From NCBI GenBank assembly GCA_964450735.1, contig CAYVDC010000001.1:69577-133576 (forward strand): DNA of 64,000 nt, given 5' to 3'. Positions within the stretch are counted from its first letter, which is position 1. Every line of letters begins with the position of its first letter. Under the pieces are notes generated by a model, which saw only the letters and a list, made by a program, of their open reading frames with translations, searched no databases and was not told the origin of the DNA. The position numbers and the translations under genes are program-made. This document shows positions 60,153-64,000 of this stretch, piece after piece. The DNA comes from an uncultured Candidatus Saccharibacteria bacterium. Lineage in GTDB: Bacteria > Patescibacteriota > Minisyncoccia > Phycocordibacterales > UBA9973.

Positions 60153-60422
60153 ATGGCAAAAAAGAAACAAGTGACATTAGAATCCTTTGAAGAAAAGGTT
60201 GAACCATTAGTGGTGGAAGAAGAAATTGATGATATTGTTGTCATTGCATCAGAAGCGATAAATAAGATTTATCAAATCAAAACTATTGAGCGATGGAAAT
60301 TGAACAATGCTGTTGATTTAGTTTCACAGGGAAGAAATGATGAGGCTGTTAAATTGTTAATGCAAATTCAAACAATTGATAGAAATCTTCTTAGTGAAAT
60401 CATTAATCTCCTTAATAAATGA
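60153..60422 (+). CDS. Hypothetical protein upstream of the clamp loader (gp62-position ORF)
   Basis: 89 aa, overlapping the clamp-loader start. Confidence 0.35.
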   Translation: MAKKKQVTLESFEEKVEPLVVEEEIDDIVVIASEAINKIYQIKTIERWKLNNAVDLVSQGRNDEAVKLLMQIQTIDRNLLSEIINLLNK

Positions 60423-61318
60423 AAACTCTTTGGGTAGAGAAATACAGACCCAACAATATTGAGGAATACTTATGTAATGAAGAATTTAAAAATAACATTT
60501 TAAAGAAATTCATTGATGAACAAAGTATTCCTCATATTATTTTACATGGGTCTGCTGGACAAGGTAAAACGAGTTTGGCTAAAATATTAATCAAAGAATT
60601 AAATGCCACTCATTTATATATTAATGCAAGTGAGGAAAATGGAATAAATGTAATTAGAGAAAGGGTGAAAGAATTTGCTAAATCTTCTTCCCTATCTCCA
60701 ATTAAAATCGTCTTCTTCGATGAAGGAGATAGACTTTCAGCAGAAGCCCAAGATAGCTTAAAGAACATGATGGAATCTTATTCTAACAAAACAAGATTCA
60801 TTTTCACAACAAATAAGCTACATGGATTCATCGAACCCATCATCAGTAGATGTGCTGTTTTTGAAATAAAAGCACCTTCTAAAAGAGAAGTGGCTAAAAG
60901 AATGGTGCAGATTTCCAAATCAGAAAATATATTGCTATCAATGGACACGTTAGCAATGATTGTTAATGATAACTATCCCGATATTAGAAGATGTATTGAT
61001 GAGATGGAAGTGAACATTAAAGATGGTAGATGTATATATGTTAATAAATCTTTAAAATTTATTGATAATTTATTTGAAATTATTGATAAAAGTGTTAATT
61101 TTGCTTTGAAATTCAAAGAAATCAAAGACTTGATATATCAACAAGATTTTAATTACAACCATCTTTATTCAGAGTTATTTGATAAGTTGGAAAGTAAGGA
61201 TAAATTGGAAATGTCAATCCTTATTGTCGGAGAATATTCATATTACAATTCAGTAGTGATGGATAAGAGAATCAATTTTTTAACTTGTATAACTAAATTA
61301 ATTAATTTATGGAATTAA
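60419..61318 (+). CDS. gp44: Clamp loader AAA+ subunit, gp44/RFC-small-subunit-like
   Basis: LWVEKYRPNNIEE (RFC box II KYRP); Walker A LHGSAGQGKTS; Walker B IVFFDEGD; SRC motif IISRCAVFE. Confidence 0.85.
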   Translation: MKTLWVEKYRPNNIEEYLCNEEFKNNILKKFIDEQSIPHIILHGSAGQGKTSLAKILIKELNATHLYINASEENGINVIRERVKEFAKSSSLSPIKIVFFDEGDRLSAEAQDSLKNMMESYSNKTRFIFTTNKLHGFIEPIISRCAVFEIKAPSKREVAKRMVQISKSENILLSMDTLAMIVNDNYPDIRRCIDEMEVNIKDGRCIYVNKSLKFIDNLFEIIDKSVNFALKFKEIKDLIYQQDFNYNHLYSELFDKLESKDKLEMSILIVGEYSYYNSVVMDKRINFLTCITKLINLWN

Positions 61319-61548
61319 ATAAGGGAAAAGTGACAGTGGATTTGAGGAAACATTCTAAACCAATGAAATGTCAAGCTATTGTGGATGGAATTAAATGCGA
61401 GAACACCACATTCATTCAAGGAGCGATGTTTAATAAAGTGTCTAAGTTTATAACAGGAAACCCACAAGATACCATTCTATCCATTCCTGTTTTTTTATGT
61501 ACAAAATGTAACACTCCTCTCAAAGAATTTCTTCCAGAAGATGTTTAA
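61309..61548 (+). CDS. Hypothetical small Cys-containing protein (possible clamp-loader accessory)
   Basis: 79 aa with CQAIVDGIKC...CTKC. Confidence 0.35.
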   Translation: MELNKGKVTVDLRKHSKPMKCQAIVDGIKCENTTFIQGAMFNKVSKFITGNPQDTILSIPVFLCTKCNTPLKEFLPEDV

Positions 61549-61846
61549 ATTTATTGACTATTTAACAAAGGAGAAGAAAAAATGGAAGAATTTAACAGAA
61601 GAAGAAAAGAATGAATATTCACCTTTTGTTATTAATTCTTTTCTTTCCAACTCAGAAGAATTAGTTGAAATAATAAATTTCCTTAACATCTATTATAAGA
61701 TTCCAAAAAAAGAACATTATAATTTCTTATTGAAAACCCTTCCTAAAAAGAAAATGTTTATTGGCTTTTCTAAAAAAGAAAAGAAAATTGATAAAGTTGA
61801 AACTAATTCTAAATCAATTCAGTTTATAAAGAAAAAGAAAAAATGA
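61541..61846 (+). CDS. Hypothetical Lys-rich small protein
   Basis: 101 aa. Confidence 0.35.
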   Translation: MFKFIDYLTKEKKKWKNLTEEEKNEYSPFVINSFLSNSEELVEIINFLNIYYKIPKKEHYNFLLKTLPKKKMFIGFSKKEKKIDKVETNSKSIQFIKKKKK

Positions 61847-63084
61847 ATTTAATAGGAATCGCGGGGAAAGCCCAAGCTGGAAAAAACTTAACAGCATCTA
61901 TTATTCAAAAATTAACATCTCCTCATTACAATGATGTTGATATAGATTGGAATAATCTATCGAAATATAATTTTACTAATAGCGAATGGGAACAAAAATG
62001 TTTTGCAGATAAGCTGAAAGACATAGTTTGTATTTTGATTGGATGTACTCGCAAACAATTAGAAGATGGAGCATTTAAAGAAACTGAATTAGGAGAAGAA
62101 TGGTGGATATATGATGTCAATGAATTTCAACAACCATATGAAGAAGGAGATTGTGAACCTATACCTGTTATAAAATTAACACCAAGAAAATTATTACAAA
62201 CTATTGGTACTGATTTATTTAGAAATAGGTTACATCCTGATATTTGGTGTAACTCTCTTTTTTCAGATTACAATGAGGATACTGAAAAATGGATAGATGT
62301 TGTAAATTATGAAGGTAGTTATCAAATTTCTTCTTTTGGTAGAATAAAAAGTTTAGATAGAAAAATAGTTTATGGAGAAGGTATTGGTCAATATCATACT
62401 AAAAAAAGTCAATTTTTAAAACCTACTCTAAGTGGTGGATATGAAACAGTATCTTTAAGTGGTAAAACTTTTACTCTACATTCTTTAGTAGCTAAACATT
62501 TTGTAAAAGGTTATCAAGAAGGGTTTGTTGTAAATCACATTGATTACAATAAAACAAATAATTTTTATAAAAATCTTGAGTGGATAACCCAAGAAGATAA
62601 TATAAAACATAATAAAACTACTCTTAGGGGTAATTTTGGAGAATCTCAAAAAGATGCTAAATTAGATTCTGATAAAGTATTAGCAATAAAAAAACTTATT
62701 GAATATAATACTTTATCTCAAAATAAAATAGCAAAATTATTTAATGTTTCTCCAACTACAATTTCAGGTATTAAAAAAGGTAAAAAGTGGAATCATGTAG
62801 GTAAAGATATTGATAAAATAGAACCTATATTACCTGTATTTGCACCTAAATGGATTATCACAGATGTTCGATTTCCAAACGAGTGTAAGAAAATAAAAGA
62901 AAAAGGTGGAATTATAATTAATGTGGTGAGAAATCATTCTATTAATAAAAATGAACATGTCTCAGAAAGAATGTTAGATGGATATAGTTTCGATTACCAA
63001 ATAAATAATTTTGGAACGATTGAAGAATTGGTTAAACTTGTAAAAGAAATTTTGATTAAAGAAAATATTTTAGAAAATGATTGA
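61843..63084 (+). CDS. gp1: dNMP kinase (T4 gp1-like) with an in-frame NUMOD4-HNH-HTH homing-endonuclease domain insertion
   Basis: N-terminal MNLIGIAGKAQAGKNLTA matches T4 gp1 MKLIFLSGVKRSGKDTTA; LLQTIGTDLFRNRLHPDIW matches LMQALGTDLIVNNFDRMYW; C-terminal WIITDVRFPNE...GGIIINVVR...FGTIEEL matches YYIVPDTRQDHE...GATVIHVVR...DGSLEEL. Between them (aa ~146-335, nt ~62280-62850) lie a NUMOD4-like box (EGSYQISSFGRIKS), an HNH box (HSLVAKHFVKGYQEGFVVNHIDYNKTNNFYKNLEW) and an IENR/NUMOD1-like HTH (LSQNKIAKLFNVSPTTISGI). Confidence 0.75.
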   Translation: MNLIGIAGKAQAGKNLTASIIQKLTSPHYNDVDIDWNNLSKYNFTNSEWEQKCFADKLKDIVCILIGCTRKQLEDGAFKETELGEEWWIYDVNEFQQPYEEGDCEPIPVIKLTPRKLLQTIGTDLFRNRLHPDIWCNSLFSDYNEDTEKWIDVVNYEGSYQISSFGRIKSLDRKIVYGEGIGQYHTKKSQFLKPTLSGGYETVSLSGKTFTLHSLVAKHFVKGYQEGFVVNHIDYNKTNNFYKNLEWITQEDNIKHNKTTLRGNFGESQKDAKLDSDKVLAIKKLIEYNTLSQNKIAKLFNVSPTTISGIKKGKKWNHVGKDIDKIEPILPVFAPKWIITDVRFPNECKKIKEKGGIIINVVRNHSINKNEHVSERMLDGYSFDYQINNFGTIEELVKLVKEILIKENILEND

Positions 63085-63526
63085 AAAAATAAAACATTGG
63101 AGAGAAGTTTTTGGACTTCCTAACAGAACAGTTCCGCAAATACCCAGTGATAAAGAAATGGCTTTGTCTTTTAAATTGATTCTTGAAGAAACAGAGGAAT
63201 TGAAATTAGCTATTGAAAACTATTCTCTGAATGACATTGCTGACGCAATAGGTGATTTATACTTCGTAGTTACGCAGATGGCTATGGTGTGTGGATTAGA
63301 CCCAAAAGAACTTGTTGAAAAGGTCTATGATTCCAATATGAGTAAACTCTGTTTAACAATAGAAGAATCGTTAGATAGTGTCTTTGAATATAAAAGAAAA
63401 GGAATAGATGTTTATGCTGAAAAATTCAATGAATATTATATTTTGAAAAGACTAAGTGATGGTAAAGTATTGAAATCTATTAACTTCAAAGAACCAAATT
63501 GGAATTATGATAATGATAGGCAGTAA
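63077..63526 (+). CDS. MazG-like all-alpha nucleoside triphosphate pyrophosphohydrolase (T4 gp56 dCTPase-like or MazZ-like)
   Basis: LILEETEELKLAIEN...DAIGDLYFVVTQMAMVCGLDP fits the MazG/HisE EExxE...DxxxD metal-binding helices. Size is 149 aa. Confidence 0.55.
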   Translation: MIEKIKHWREVFGLPNRTVPQIPSDKEMALSFKLILEETEELKLAIENYSLNDIADAIGDLYFVVTQMAMVCGLDPKELVEKVYDSNMSKLCLTIEESLDSVFEYKRKGIDVYAEKFNEYYILKRLSDGKVLKSINFKEPNWNYDNDRQ

Positions 63527-64000
63527 AGCCATAAAAAGATGGTTTGAAGATTTCCCAAGAACTCCCAAAGATGTTGATTACATTGTTGATTATAAAACAA
63601 AAGGTTCGAGCGAAATAGAATTATTATACAACCCAATTCTTTACAAATTCATTAAAGAAGAATTTCCATATTGGGAAGTGGCAAGTCCTGATGTTTTATA
63701 TACATTAAAAATGTCACATGTTGTTGGATGGGATATAAATTGGGAAAAACATTTATTTGACATTCAATTCTTAAAAAAGAAAGGATGTAAATTAATCTCT
63801 GAATTGTTTTATGAATTGTATGAATTTTGGAACACTGTTCACCAGAAAAATAAAAGAAGTGAATTGAATATGTCTTCTGAAATGTTTTTTGATAATGCTA
63901 TTAAATATCCTGTTCCACATGATATTATTCATACTTTTATAAAAAATCCTCCCACATTTACTAAAGTGTTGGTTGGGGAAGTGGAGGTGAGTGAATCATT
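63514..64000 (+). CDS. Nucleotidyltransferase-fold protein (3' end beyond the window)
   Basis: MIGSKAIKRWFEDFPRTPKDVDYIV fits the minimal NTase signature GS-x(n)-D-x-D. The frame stays open to the window end. It is not in the ORF track because no stop is reached. Confidence 0.35.

What the first reader, a model, noticed from the sequence alone, without database searches (positions are those of the whole stretch)
61843..63084. dNMP kinase gene carrying an in-frame HNH homing-endonuclease domain, not an intein and not an intron
The N-terminal ~145 aa and C-terminal ~80 aa align collinearly with T4 gp1 dNMP kinase (P-loop, LGTDL...W, VRFPNE lid, GTIEEL). Exactly where T4 has a short linker, a ~190-aa NUMOD4-HNH-HTH cassette sits in the same frame. 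There is no Hint-domain signature (no Cys/Ser at a plausible N-junction, no HN-C/S/T at the C-junction), so it is not an intein. There is no stop or frame change, so no intron is needed. Both junctions share the nucleotides AAATGGAT (protein KWID / KWII), suggesting the insertion event left a short duplication. A free-standing homing endonuclease fixed as an internal domain of an essential nucleotide kinase is unusual and may create a bifunctional or regulated enzyme.
Basis: seen in the sequence. Interest (0 to 1): 0.7.

Follow-up and report, generated by a model that had tools for sequence, protein, structure and literature searches.

The report
Mobile nuclease cassette inside kinase gene
A phage nucleotide-kinase gene carries a complete homing-endonuclease cassette in its own reading frame, and comparison with about 50 relatives shows the cassette is a selfish element still jumping between very different phage kinase genes with no intron or intein to remove it.

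Summary
ORF 61843-63084 (413 aa) is a T4 gp1-type dNMP kinase. Residues 145-335 (nt 62275-62847) are a complete I-HmuI-type NUMOD4-HNH-HTH endonuclease in the same frame, with no start or stop of its own. No intein (Hint) or group I intron signal was found, and there is no room for either.

- **Junction repeat:** the shared AAATGGAT is not an insertion scar. It is absent in relatives, and each copy belongs to a conserved motif (NUMOD4 ExW; kinase [N/K]WIITD).
- **"Fixed" domain:** the cassette is mobile. About 50 metagenomic kinases carry it at the identical site. Cassette and kinase identities are uncorrelated (rho 0.006 over 1275 pairs). Some cassettes are 97-99% identical inside kinases only 40-59% identical. 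One pair shares a ~620-nt tract at 98-100% nt identity in genes otherwise 45-75% identical. For the window gene against its closest cassette relatives, cassette dS is 0.26-0.28 and kinase dS is 1.2-2.4.

Closest precedent: the ShiLan insertion, whose HNH is out of frame. I rate this a new variant of a known kind.

The parts
61843..63084 (+). Whole chimeric ORF (413 aa plus stop): dNMP kinase with the nested endonuclease cassette. Its ATG overlaps the stop of the upstream gp62-like clamp-loader gene (ATGA). Its stop overlaps the start of the downstream MazG-like gene at 63077.
61843..62274 (+). Kinase N-terminal part, aa 1-144. It includes the P-loop G8-K14 (61864-61887) and the TPRxLLQxxGT...HPxIW nucleotide-binding helices.
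62215..62274 (+). 5' flank of the cassette (aa 125-144, ...HPDIWCNSLFSDYN). This is kinase sequence that travels with the cassette, a likely co-conversion tract and possibly the site of cleavage or of immunity substitutions.
   Evidence: Nucleotide identity to P0002/P0003 rises to 80-83% here, against 40-65% further upstream. In the L001/L003 pair the 98-100% tract starts about 60 nt upstream of the cassette. Cys136 is found in 29 of 51 insert-bearing alleles against 2 of 66 alleles without this cassette, Fisher p 1.7e-11.
62275..62847 (+). Mobile cassette, aa 145-335 (573 nt): a complete I-HmuI-type HNH homing endonuclease in the host frame, with no start or stop of its own.
62284..62460 (+). 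NUMOD4 beta-sheet DNA-binding module (aa 148-206); E148 and W150 are invariant.
   Evidence: Pfam NUMOD4 2.2e-12; invariant columns in alignment A1
62509..62613 (+). HNH (beta-beta-alpha-metal) nuclease motif, VVNHIDYNKTNNFYKNLEWITQEDNIKHN (aa 223-257).
   Evidence: Pfam HNH_3. N231, H232, D234, N236, N239, N240, N244, E246 and N253 are invariant in 43 sequences. The motif aligns to the I-HmuI catalytic motif.
62671..62787 (+). C-terminal helix-turn-helix DNA-binding module of the endonuclease (aa 277-315).
   Evidence: Pfam CENP-B_N / HTH families; helices 276-311 in the model
62788..62847 (+). Proline-rich coil (aa 316-335, KWNHVGK...PILPVFAP) that leads back to the kinase core; proposed return tether.
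   Evidence: DSSP coil for residues 312-335 with pLDDT about 77; P328, I329, P331 and P335 are at least 90% conserved; this stretch lies beyond the end of the I-HmuI alignment
62848..63084 (+). Kinase C-terminal part, aa 336-413 plus stop: strand KWIITDVRFPNE, then the HxSE motif and GTIEEL.
   Evidence: Pfam DNMK 335-397; phmmer against 1DEK; D341, R343, N346, E347, R363, H372, S374 and E375 are invariant. The nucleotide identity tract ends sharply at 62847/62848.
62287..62294 (+). First copy of AAATGGAT (codons K149-W150-I151). It is part of the NUMOD4 start and not a target-site duplication.
62848..62855 (+). Second copy of AAATGGAT (codons K336-W337-I338). It is part of the kinase strand, which is also present in insert-less kinases.

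Best explanation
The region holds a splicing-free, in-frame homing-endonuclease element living inside a phage dNMP kinase gene.

**What it is.** A 573-nt cassette (62275-62847) encodes a whole I-HmuI-type NUMOD4-HNH-HTH endonuclease plus a proline-rich tail. It has lost its own start and stop codons. It sits in the length-variable surface linker between the last helix of the kinase's N half (...IWxNxLxxDY) and the core strand (N/K)WIITDxRFPNE.

**How it is expressed.** It is translated only as part of the 413-aa chimeric protein. The two kinase halves still assemble into one gp1-type fold, and the nuclease hangs off as a separate domain.

**How it spreads.** When a carrier phage co-infects with a relative whose kinase gene has an empty site, the HNH domain nicks or cuts that allele. 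Recombinational repair then copies the cassette in, always in frame, together with about 60 nt of upstream kinase sequence.

**Why no splicing is needed.** The element persists because its landing site tolerates a 190-aa excursion.

**Shown here:** the architecture, the absence of splicing elements, the conserved site, horizontal transfer, purifying selection on the nuclease, and the intact kinase motifs.

**Inferred:** nuclease activity and its target, cleavage upstream of the insertion point, lack of any processing of the protein, and retained kinase activity.
For: **Architecture.**
- Domain calls.
- The insert equals I-HmuI residues 2-163.
- The AF2 model has pLDDT 85.7 and pTM 0.72.

**No own expression signals.** Residues 143-338 contain no Met and no in-frame start codon. 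The frame is open in all members examined.

**Same site in about 50 clusters at 90% identity.** Cassette length is constant (192-205 aa), while the kinase halves vary from 108 to 193 aa (N) and 72 to 123 aa (C).

**Mobility.**
- The cassette is 87-88% identical to the query's where the kinase halves are 42-56% identical. That kinase level is the same as for insert-less kinases.
- Cassettes 97-99% identical sit in kinases 40-59% identical (P0003/P0004/P0010, P0025/P0027).
- The reverse also occurs: kinases 83% identical carry cassettes 52% identical (P0011/P0042).
- Spearman rho is 0.006 over 1275 pairs.
- DNA: a ~620-nt tract is 98-100% identical in genes otherwise 45-75% identical, from independent samples.
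- For the window gene itself, the cassette is 90-97% nt identical to L087/L088 and the flanks 40-65%.
- Cassette dS is 0.03-0.28 against kinase dS of 1.2-2.4.

**Selection.** Cassette dN/dS is 0.16-0.41. The HNH residues are invariant.

**Kinase kept.** The query retains 53 of 54 positions that are at least 90% conserved in the family.

**Patchy distribution.** Only about 10 of the best 150 cluster representatives at 50% identity carry this cassette; most are insert-less.

**A wider phenomenon in this kinase family.**
- A second site holds a NUMOD4-HNH-AP2 cassette (12 proteins).
- One gene has both sites filled in frame (P0005).
- Its close relative P0011, 96-100% nt identical outside the site-B region and one divergent patch near the 3' end, lacks the site-B cassette. 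This is a presence/absence polymorphism.
Against: - Nothing here is experimental. No transcript, protein, nuclease or kinase data exist.
- No near-identical empty-site allele was found for site A. The closest pair of filled and empty kinases is 72-74% identical, so homing into site A is inferred from incongruence, not seen directly.
- I-HmuI's metal ligand Asp74 aligns with an invariant Asn (N231) in this clade.
- An elongated DNA-wrapping enzyme tethered at both ends may be hindered.
- Some insert-bearing kinases deviate at 8-10 conserved positions (family mean 2.5, against 1.2 for insert-less). One allele (L089) has a stop and a 22-aa deletion in the kinase N half. Tolerance might therefore partly reflect a dispensable kinase and not preserved function.
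Confidence: 0.72

Rival explanations
1. Domesticated bifunctional enzyme. An old endonuclease insertion has become a fixed, vertically inherited DNA-binding or nuclease domain that gives the kinase a new or regulated function.
For: - The architecture is conserved in about 50 clusters, with open frames, intact kinase motifs and a conserved tail linker.
- Nested HNH domains in host enzymes exist elsewhere, for example Cas9 and IscB (own knowledge).
Against: - Cassette and kinase histories are completely uncoupled: rho 0.006, near-identical cassettes in kinases 40-59% identical, and very different cassettes in kinases 83% identical.
- A 98-100% identical DNA tract is embedded in divergent genes.
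- Cassette dS is 5-40 times lower than host-gene dS.
- Most members of the kinase subfamily lack the insert.
Confidence: 0.07
2. The chimeric protein is processed after translation, either by an unrecognised kind of protein splicing or by proteolysis at the linkers. This would release a free endonuclease and a ligated or two-piece kinase.
For: - The junction residues are conserved: Y143-x-G-D-x-E-x-W on the left, and P-I-x-P-x4-P-N-W on the right.
- Split enzymes reassembled around mobile-element insertions are known, for example Aeh1 NrdA (PMC3045599 abstract).
Against: - No Hint, intein or BIL family hits any of the 43 members, whereas the same precomputed Pfam pipeline does record a true HNH-containing intein in the neighbouring RNR gene of L001.
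- The whole insert is accounted for by the I-HmuI fold plus 20 residues.
- There is no conserved Cys/Ser/Thr at the cassette's first residue or at the +1 position. The right junction is P-N-W.
- The conserved junction residues are explained by the NUMOD4 consensus and by a proline linker.
Confidence: 0.08
3. The insert is removed at the RNA level, by a group I or other self-splicing intron, or it is bypassed by the ribosome.
For: - I-HmuI-type enzymes are classically intron-encoded (1U3E; own knowledge).
- Phage nucleotide-metabolism genes are frequent intron hosts (own knowledge).
Against: - No Rfam intron match at E<=10 over 61000-64000.
- The RNA folding z-score is -0.62.
- Only about 12 nt lie upstream and about 60 nt downstream of the endonuclease coding part, which is too little for a ribozyme core.
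- The frame is continuous across both junctions in every member, and codon-level purifying selection runs through the cassette.
- The insert is far longer than the 50-nt gap of the known ribosomal bypass (10.1101/2022.08.31.505936 abstract).
Confidence: 0.03
4. The cassette is an inactive passenger. It spreads only by ordinary homologous recombination between co-infecting phages, because the conserved kinase motifs on each side act as recombination anchors. Its own nuclease plays no part.
For: - The flanking motifs (HPNIW; WIITDxRFPNE) are highly conserved and could serve as crossover points.
- Nuclease genes often mark recombination boundaries (PMC10448857 abstract).
- N231 replaces I-HmuI Asp74.
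Against: - The HNH core residues are invariant over 43 sequences, and dN/dS is 0.16-0.41. Both argue for a selected protein function.
- The transferred tract is confined to the cassette plus a short one-sided flank, and does not form random mosaic blocks.
- Three cassette types at two sites in one small gene are hard to explain without site-specific targeting.
Confidence: 0.08

Closest known systems
ShiLan-domain insertion elements in mycobacteriophage DNA methylases (Arsenault, Gosselin & Gogarten 2025, PMC11855218)
   Same: An insertion inside a phage ORF that adds no stop codon when read with the host gene. It has no detectable intein or intron features and a patchy, horizontally transferred distribution. 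It encodes an HNH endonuclease and is predicted to form a tolerated excursion of the host enzyme.
   Different: In ShiLan the HNH is read in an alternative frame, with its own GTG start and TAA stop, and the in-frame peptide is a functionless loop. Here the endonuclease is in the host frame with no start or stop, so it can only be made as an internal domain of the kinase. The host gene (dNMP kinase against methylase) and the phage group (AT-rich T4-like, distantly like Bacteroides phages) also differ.
I-HmuI / I-HmuII, intron-encoded HNH nicking endonucleases of Bacillus phages SPO1 and SP82 (PDB 1U3E)
   Different: I-HmuI is translated from its own ORF inside a self-splicing group I intron. 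Here there is no intron and no separate ORF. Sequence identity is only about 27-37%, and Asp74 is replaced by Asn.
Inteins with nested homing endonucleases, including HNH-type inteins such as the one in the RNR gene of locus L001
   Same: An in-frame selfish insertion in a phage nucleotide-metabolism enzyme that carries a homing nuclease and is translated with the host protein.
   Different: There is no Hint splicing domain, no junction nucleophiles and no (H)N-C/S/T motif. The insertion lies in a variable surface linker, not in a catalytic motif.
Free-standing endonuclease genes that split phage genes (Aeh1 mobE in nrdA, PMC3045599; T4 mobA with gene 60/39)
   Same: An HNH-family mobile gene lands inside an essential nucleotide- or DNA-metabolism gene without an intron or intein, and the host enzyme has to cope.
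   Different: Those insertions carry their own start and stop and break the host gene into two polypeptides, or need ribosomal bypass. Here a single continuous polypeptide is encoded.
Nested HNH domains of Cas9 / IscB
   Same: An HNH nuclease domain inserted within another folded domain as an excursion (own knowledge).
   Different: Those are fixed, vertically inherited functional domains. This cassette is mobile and patchy.

Membership tests
T4 gp1-type dNMP kinase (Pfam DNMK PF21448) | Profile match above the curated threshold | tested here: met
   56.3 bits against a cut-off of 27.1, in two stretches; PHROG 139 at 7e-39; all 43 relatives match
T4 gp1-type dNMP kinase (Pfam DNMK PF21448) | gp1 fold formed by the polypeptide | tested here: met
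T4 gp1-type dNMP kinase (Pfam DNMK PF21448) | P-loop and family-conserved catalytic positions present | tested here: met
   G8, G13, K14, D341, R343, E347, R363, H372, S374 and E375 are present; 53 of 54 positions at least 90% conserved in the family are retained
T4 gp1-type dNMP kinase (Pfam DNMK PF21448) | Phosphorylates dNMPs | not testable with these tools
   An enzyme assay is needed
I-HmuI-type HNH homing endonuclease (NUMOD4 + HNH_3 + HTH) | All three modules, in order | tested here: met
I-HmuI-type HNH homing endonuclease (NUMOD4 + HNH_3 + HTH) | Catalytic His and metal-binding Asn conserved | tested here: met
   H232 and N253 are invariant in 43 sequences. The position of I-HmuI Asp74 is an invariant Asn.
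I-HmuI-type HNH homing endonuclease (NUMOD4 + HNH_3 + HTH) | Evolutionary signature of mobility (patchy distribution, incongruence with the host gene, co-conversion) | tested here: met
I-HmuI-type HNH homing endonuclease (NUMOD4 + HNH_3 + HTH) | Site-specific nicking or cleavage of the empty allele | not testable with these tools
   An in vitro assay is needed
Free-standing homing endonuclease gene | Own start and stop codons (a separate ORF) | tested here: not met
   No Met or in-frame start codon in residues 143-338, and no stop; one continuous ORF in all members
Intein | Hint splicing domain flanking the endonuclease | tested here: not met
   No Hint, Intein_splicing or PT-HINT hit in the query (E<=1) or in the 43 relatives. 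The insert is fully covered by the I-HmuI fold plus a 20-aa coil. Positive control: an intein is recorded in the RNR gene of L001.
Intein | Nucleophile (C/S/T) at intein residue 1 and at extein +1; terminal Asn/Gln | tested here: not met
   The left junction is Y-x-G-D-x-E-x-W and the right junction is P-N-W-I-I. No conserved C/S/T is present at either junction.
Group I intron | Ribozyme core detectable, with room for it | tested here: not met
   No Rfam hit at E<=10; folding z-score -0.62; less than 75 nt of the insert is not endonuclease-coding
Group I intron | Exon frame need not be kept through the insert | tested here: not met
   The frame is kept through both junctions in about 50 diverged members, with dN/dS below 0.45
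ShiLan-type non-splicing insertion element | Stop-free insertion in a host ORF without splicing signatures, with a disjunct distribution | tested here: met
   definition taken from PMC11855218
ShiLan-type non-splicing insertion element | HNH encoded in an alternative frame with its own start and stop | tested here: not met
   The HNH is in the host frame. The other frames of 62275-62847 hold only short ORFs on the minus strand.

The most novel reading that the evidence does not exclude
Splicing-free, in-frame homing-endonuclease cassettes may be a distinct lifestyle of selfish DNA. In this view, endonucleases have shed their own start and stop, gained a return linker, and specialised on loops of phage enzymes that tolerate a ~190-aa excursion. 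They would then home as protein-domain insertions without any intron or intein.

The dNMP kinase family would be a hotspot. It has at least two sites and at least three cassette types, sometimes with two cassettes in one gene. The same logic might apply widely in phage proteomes.

A bolder extension is that the nuclease domain, expressed with an early nucleotide-metabolism enzyme, also damages the genomes of competing phages.
Probability: 0.55. Interest if true: 0.8.

Novelty: new variant of a known kind. Interest (0 to 1): 0.7.

Why it matters
Homing endonuclease genes inside protein-coding genes are thought to need an intron or an intein to avoid destroying their host gene. The only recently described exception I found (ShiLan) hides its nuclease in another reading frame.

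This locus and its roughly 50 relatives show a cleaner solution. The nuclease itself is read in the host frame as an internal domain, yet the element still moves between phages.

If confirmed, this would matter in four ways:
- It adds a third route, tolerated domain insertion, to the intron and intein routes for selfish nucleases.
- It shows a natural pathway by which nuclease domains become nested in enzymes, as in Cas9 or IscB.
- It offers a natural example of a loop that tolerates insertion and of a two-ended tether for an HNH nickase.
- It warns annotators that 'fusion' proteins in phage metagenomes can be mobile elements.

Tried and rejected
- **Target-site duplication (AAATGGAT).** Rejected. 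Relatives share only TGG plus one or two bases, and both copies belong to conserved motifs.
- **Group I intron.** Rejected on the Rfam search at E<=10 and on RNA folding.
- **Intein.** Rejected on Pfam scans of the query and 43 relatives and on junction residues.
- **A second copy of the cassette, or other HNH genes, in the window.** None found by tblastn.
- **Deposited phage genomes with the fusion (INPHARED).** None found. The best place covers about 57% of the query, and the nearest kinase is 34% identical, in an uncultured crAss-like phage.
- **IMG/VR scan.** Of 80 loci returned, only one (L007 = P0033) clearly matches the site-A cassette plus both kinase halves, judging from match length and query span; the loci were not inspected individually. 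Most others look like insert-less kinases or free-standing HNH genes.
- **Insert-only protein search.** The nearest non-kinase relatives are free-standing NUMOD4-HNH proteins of 170-200 aa at 44% identity or less. No close free-standing ancestor was found.
- **A near-identical empty-site allele for site A.** Not found. The best kinase identity is 72-74%.
- **Apparent split variants P0026 and P0053.** P0053 is cut by a contig end with adapter sequence. P0026 has an in-frame stop and a deletion in a contig of 2.7x coverage.
- **Literature searches for in-frame, non-splicing endonuclease insertions.** They returned only the ShiLan paper as a close precedent.
Full report
**What is in the sequence.**
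The window holds an uninterrupted ORF at 61843..63084 on the + strand, 413 aa. Pfam gives the following:
- DNMK, the T4 gp1 family, at 56.3 bits against a cut-off of 27.1, split into an N-terminal stretch and residues 335-397;
- NUMOD4 at residues 148-206;
- HNH_3 at residues 223-253;
- helix-turn-helix families at residues 277-315.

PHROGs gives HNH endonuclease (phrog_59, 2e-45) and dNMP kinase (phrog_139, 7e-39). With the insert removed, the protein aligns to T4 gp1 (PDB 1DEK).

The insert alone aligns with I-HmuI (PDB 1U3E) from its residue 2 to residue 163, E 5e-19. The cassette therefore starts at the natural N-terminus of such an enzyme, minus the Met. Residues 143-338 contain no Met and no in-frame ATG, GTG or TTG, and there is no stop. 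I place the cassette at aa 145-335, nt 62275-62847.

The gene sits in a T4-like replication and nucleotide-metabolism operon. A gp44-like clamp loader lies at 60419-61318, a gp62-like subunit at 61541-61846 and a MazG-like gene at 63077-63526, with overlapping stops and starts. The phage is only distantly similar to Bacteroides phages DAC/SJC.

**It is not an intron or an intein.**
- No Rfam family, and no group I intron, matches 61000-64000 even at E<=10.
- The RNA across the insert folds no better than shuffles, z = -0.62.
- Outside the I-HmuI-like coding part there are only about 4 codons upstream and about 20 downstream, which is too little for a ribozyme core.
- No Hint or intein family hits the query at E<=1 or any of 43 aligned relatives at E<=0.01.
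- A genuine HNH-containing intein is on record in the RNR gene next to a relative (L001), so such elements are detectable when present.
- The junction residues are Y-x-G-D-x-E-x-W on the left and P-N-W-I-I on the right, with no conserved Cys, Ser or Thr.

**The repeated AAATGGAT.**
The word is present at 62287-62294 and 62848-62855. The first copy encodes K-W-I of the NUMOD4 start; E148 and W150 are invariant in 43 relatives. The second copy encodes K-W-I of the kinase strand [N/K]WIITD, which insert-less kinases also have. In five relatives for which DNA is held, the two junctions share only TGG plus one or two bases. This is not a target-site duplication.

**The architecture is a family, and the cassette is mobile.**
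A search of 5.8 billion proteins found about 50 clusters at 90% identity with the same kinase-NUMOD4-HNH-kinase arrangement, down to about 42% overall identity. It also found many insert-less kinases of 230-290 aa.

In a joint alignment every one of these carries the cassette at the identical position. Cassette length is nearly constant at 192-205 aa, while the kinase halves vary from 108 to 193 aa and from 72 to 123 aa.

Identity to the query reaches 87-88% in the cassette but only 42-56% in the kinase halves. That is no higher than for insert-less kinases, at 56-61%. Across 1275 pairs, cassette identity and kinase identity are uncorrelated, Spearman rho 0.006. Examples:

| Pair | Cassette identity | Kinase identity |
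|---|---|---|
| P0003 / P0004 / P0010 | 97-99% | 40-56% |
| P0025 / P0027 | 99% | 59% |
| P0011 / P0042 | 52% | 83% |
| P0036 / P0041 | 44% | 77% |

At the DNA level, L001 and L003 come from independent samples, and a third assembly (L002) encodes the same protein as L001. They share a ~620-nt tract at 98-100% identity inside genes that are otherwise 45-75% identical. The tract begins about 60 nt upstream of the cassette, in the codons for EIIHPNIWCNSLFSDYYGD. It ends sharply at the PNW junction.

The window gene shows the same picture against L087 and L088:

| Region (window nt) | Nucleotide identity |
|---|---|
| 62310-62800 (cassette) | 90-97% |
| 62215-62300 (5' flank and junction) | about 80% |
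| Elsewhere in the gene | 40-65% |

Nei-Gojobori estimates for the window gene against P0002 and P0003 give a cassette dS of 0.26-0.28, against 1.2-2.4 in the kinase halves of the same genes. For P0025/P0027 the values are 0.03 against 1.31.

A flank signature travels with the cassette. Cys136 occurs in 29 of 51 carriers against 2 of 66 alleles without this cassette, p = 1.7e-11. This one-sided flank is what obligatory co-conversion would give if cleavage occurs upstream of the insertion point.

**The cassette protein is under selection, and the kinase looks intact.**
Cassette dN/dS is 0.16-0.41. The HNH core residues N231, H232, D234, N236, N239, N240, N244, E246 and N253 are invariant in 43 sequences.

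The query keeps 53 of 54 kinase positions that are at least 90% conserved in the family; only R360N differs.

Residues 312-335 are predicted coil, with a conserved P-I-x-P-x4-P motif beyond the end of the I-HmuI alignment. I read this as a return tether, which is an inference.

**A wider pattern in the same kinase family.**
- Twelve proteins carry a different NUMOD4-HNH-AP2-like cassette in frame at a second site, after LGEEWxI.
- P0005 has both sites filled in one 574-aa ORF. Its relative P0011 is 96-100% nt identical over most of the gene but lacks the second-site cassette. The sequence on both flanks is locally divergent. This is a direct presence/absence polymorphism.
- P0056 and P0109 carry a third cassette type, with an AP2 domain, at the first site.
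- P0224 may define a third site.
- At 50% clustering, about 10 of the best 150 representatives carry the site-A cassette, and most of the family is insert-less.

**Origin.**
The nearest relatives of the cassette outside kinases are free-standing NUMOD4-HNH proteins of 170-200 aa, at 44% identity or less and 37-39% in cultured phages. The in-frame cassettes are at least about 50% identical to one another. This looks like a lineage specialised for this niche.

**Mechanism proposed.**
The chimeric protein is made from the kinase's own translation signals. The HNH domain nicks or cuts empty-site alleles of co-infecting relatives. Recombinational repair then copies the cassette plus a short upstream flank. 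The host tolerates it because the site is a linker that varies from 2 to 25 aa in insert-less kinases.

The architecture, mobility and selection are shown here. Nuclease activity, the cleavage position, the absence of processing and retained kinase activity are inferred.

**Caveats.**
- Asp74 of I-HmuI is an Asn in this clade.
- No near-identical empty allele was found for the first site.
- Some carriers show slightly more deviations at conserved kinase positions, and one allele (L089, 2.7x coverage) has a stop and a deletion in the kinase N half. A partly dispensable kinase cannot be excluded.

**Comparison with known systems.**
The closest precedent found is the ShiLan insertion in mycobacteriophage methylases (PMC11855218). 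It is also stop-free, non-splicing and mobile, but its HNH lies in another frame with its own start and stop.

Other points of comparison are I-HmuI (intron-encoded), HNH inteins (which need Hint), and endonuclease genes that split their host gene, such as Aeh1 mobE in nrdA.

Literature searches returned no report of an in-frame, host-frame endonuclease cassette in a dNMP kinase. No deposited phage genome in INPHARED has the fusion. The sources give these proteins no informative name.

**Verdict.**
This is a new variant of a known kind. I score interest at about 0.7.

Noticed in passing
L005 736-2460 (also L006 736-2460); compare L004 4001-5302: One dNMP kinase ORF (P0005, 574 aa) carries two in-frame NUMOD4-HNH cassettes at two different sites. 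Its relative P0011 is 96-100% nt identical over most of the gene and lacks the first-site-in-sequence (site B) cassette. The sequence on both flanks is locally divergent, and there is a separate divergent patch at L004 5075-5200.
   Followed up: partly
P0057, P0059, P0062, P0065, P0066, P0069, P0073, P0086, P0091, P0108, P0111, P0116 (proteins): A second family of in-frame cassettes (NUMOD4-HNH followed by an AP2-like beta-sheet module) is inserted after the kinase motif LGEEWxI. This region is also length-variable in insert-less kinases.
   Followed up: partly
P0056, P0109 (and P0098), at the same site as the window's cassette: Different inserts of 140-180 aa occupy the same kinase linker. 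P0056 and P0109 share a YGGRGI..CxEW motif, and P0109 has an AP2-domain hit (27.8 bits, below Pfam's gathering cut-off of 33.3); neither has an HNH_3 match. These may be another or a degenerate endonuclease type. P0098's insert has no family hit.
   Followed up: no
L089 1-1472 (P0026): An allele in which the kinase N half has an in-frame stop and a 22-aa deletion of the LLGTECGRNIIHPNIWCNSLFS motif, while the cassette is intact (86% identical to the window's). It is either a decaying kinase or an error in a contig of 2.7x coverage.
   Followed up: partly
L001 1-1411: The ribonucleotide reductase large-subunit gene, four genes upstream of a cassette-bearing kinase, contains a genuine intein (Hint/Intein_splicing) with an HNH_3 domain. 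The same phage therefore hosts both a spliced and a non-spliced HNH element.
   Followed up: no
P0182, P0184, P0274: Proteins of 460-570 aa with two to four NUMOD4 matches and two or three HNH_3 matches in tandem and no kinase domain. They look like head-to-tail fused endonucleases.
   Followed up: no
P0224: NUMOD4-HNH follows DNMK profile positions 85-199. This may be a third in-frame insertion site, further into the kinase.
   Followed up: no
window 61843-61846 and 63077-63084: There are tight overlaps between genes. The kinase ATG overlaps the TGA of the upstream gp62-like gene (ATGA), and the MazG-like gene starts 8 nt before the kinase stop. This suggests translational coupling along the operon.
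   Followed up: no
window 62275-63084 against 61843-62274: G+C is 25% in both the cassette and the kinase C part, against 30% in the kinase N part and 31.6% for the whole window. The composition does not single out the cassette.
   Followed up: no
L007 2734-4341 (P0033, seen on 48 contigs, the longest 315 kb): In this relative the open frame extends 87 codons upstream of the kinase start, up to a GTG. This is probably a gene-calling artefact or read-through from the upstream clamp-loader-like gene. Its last HNH histidine is Tyr (DNVRYN).
   Followed up: no
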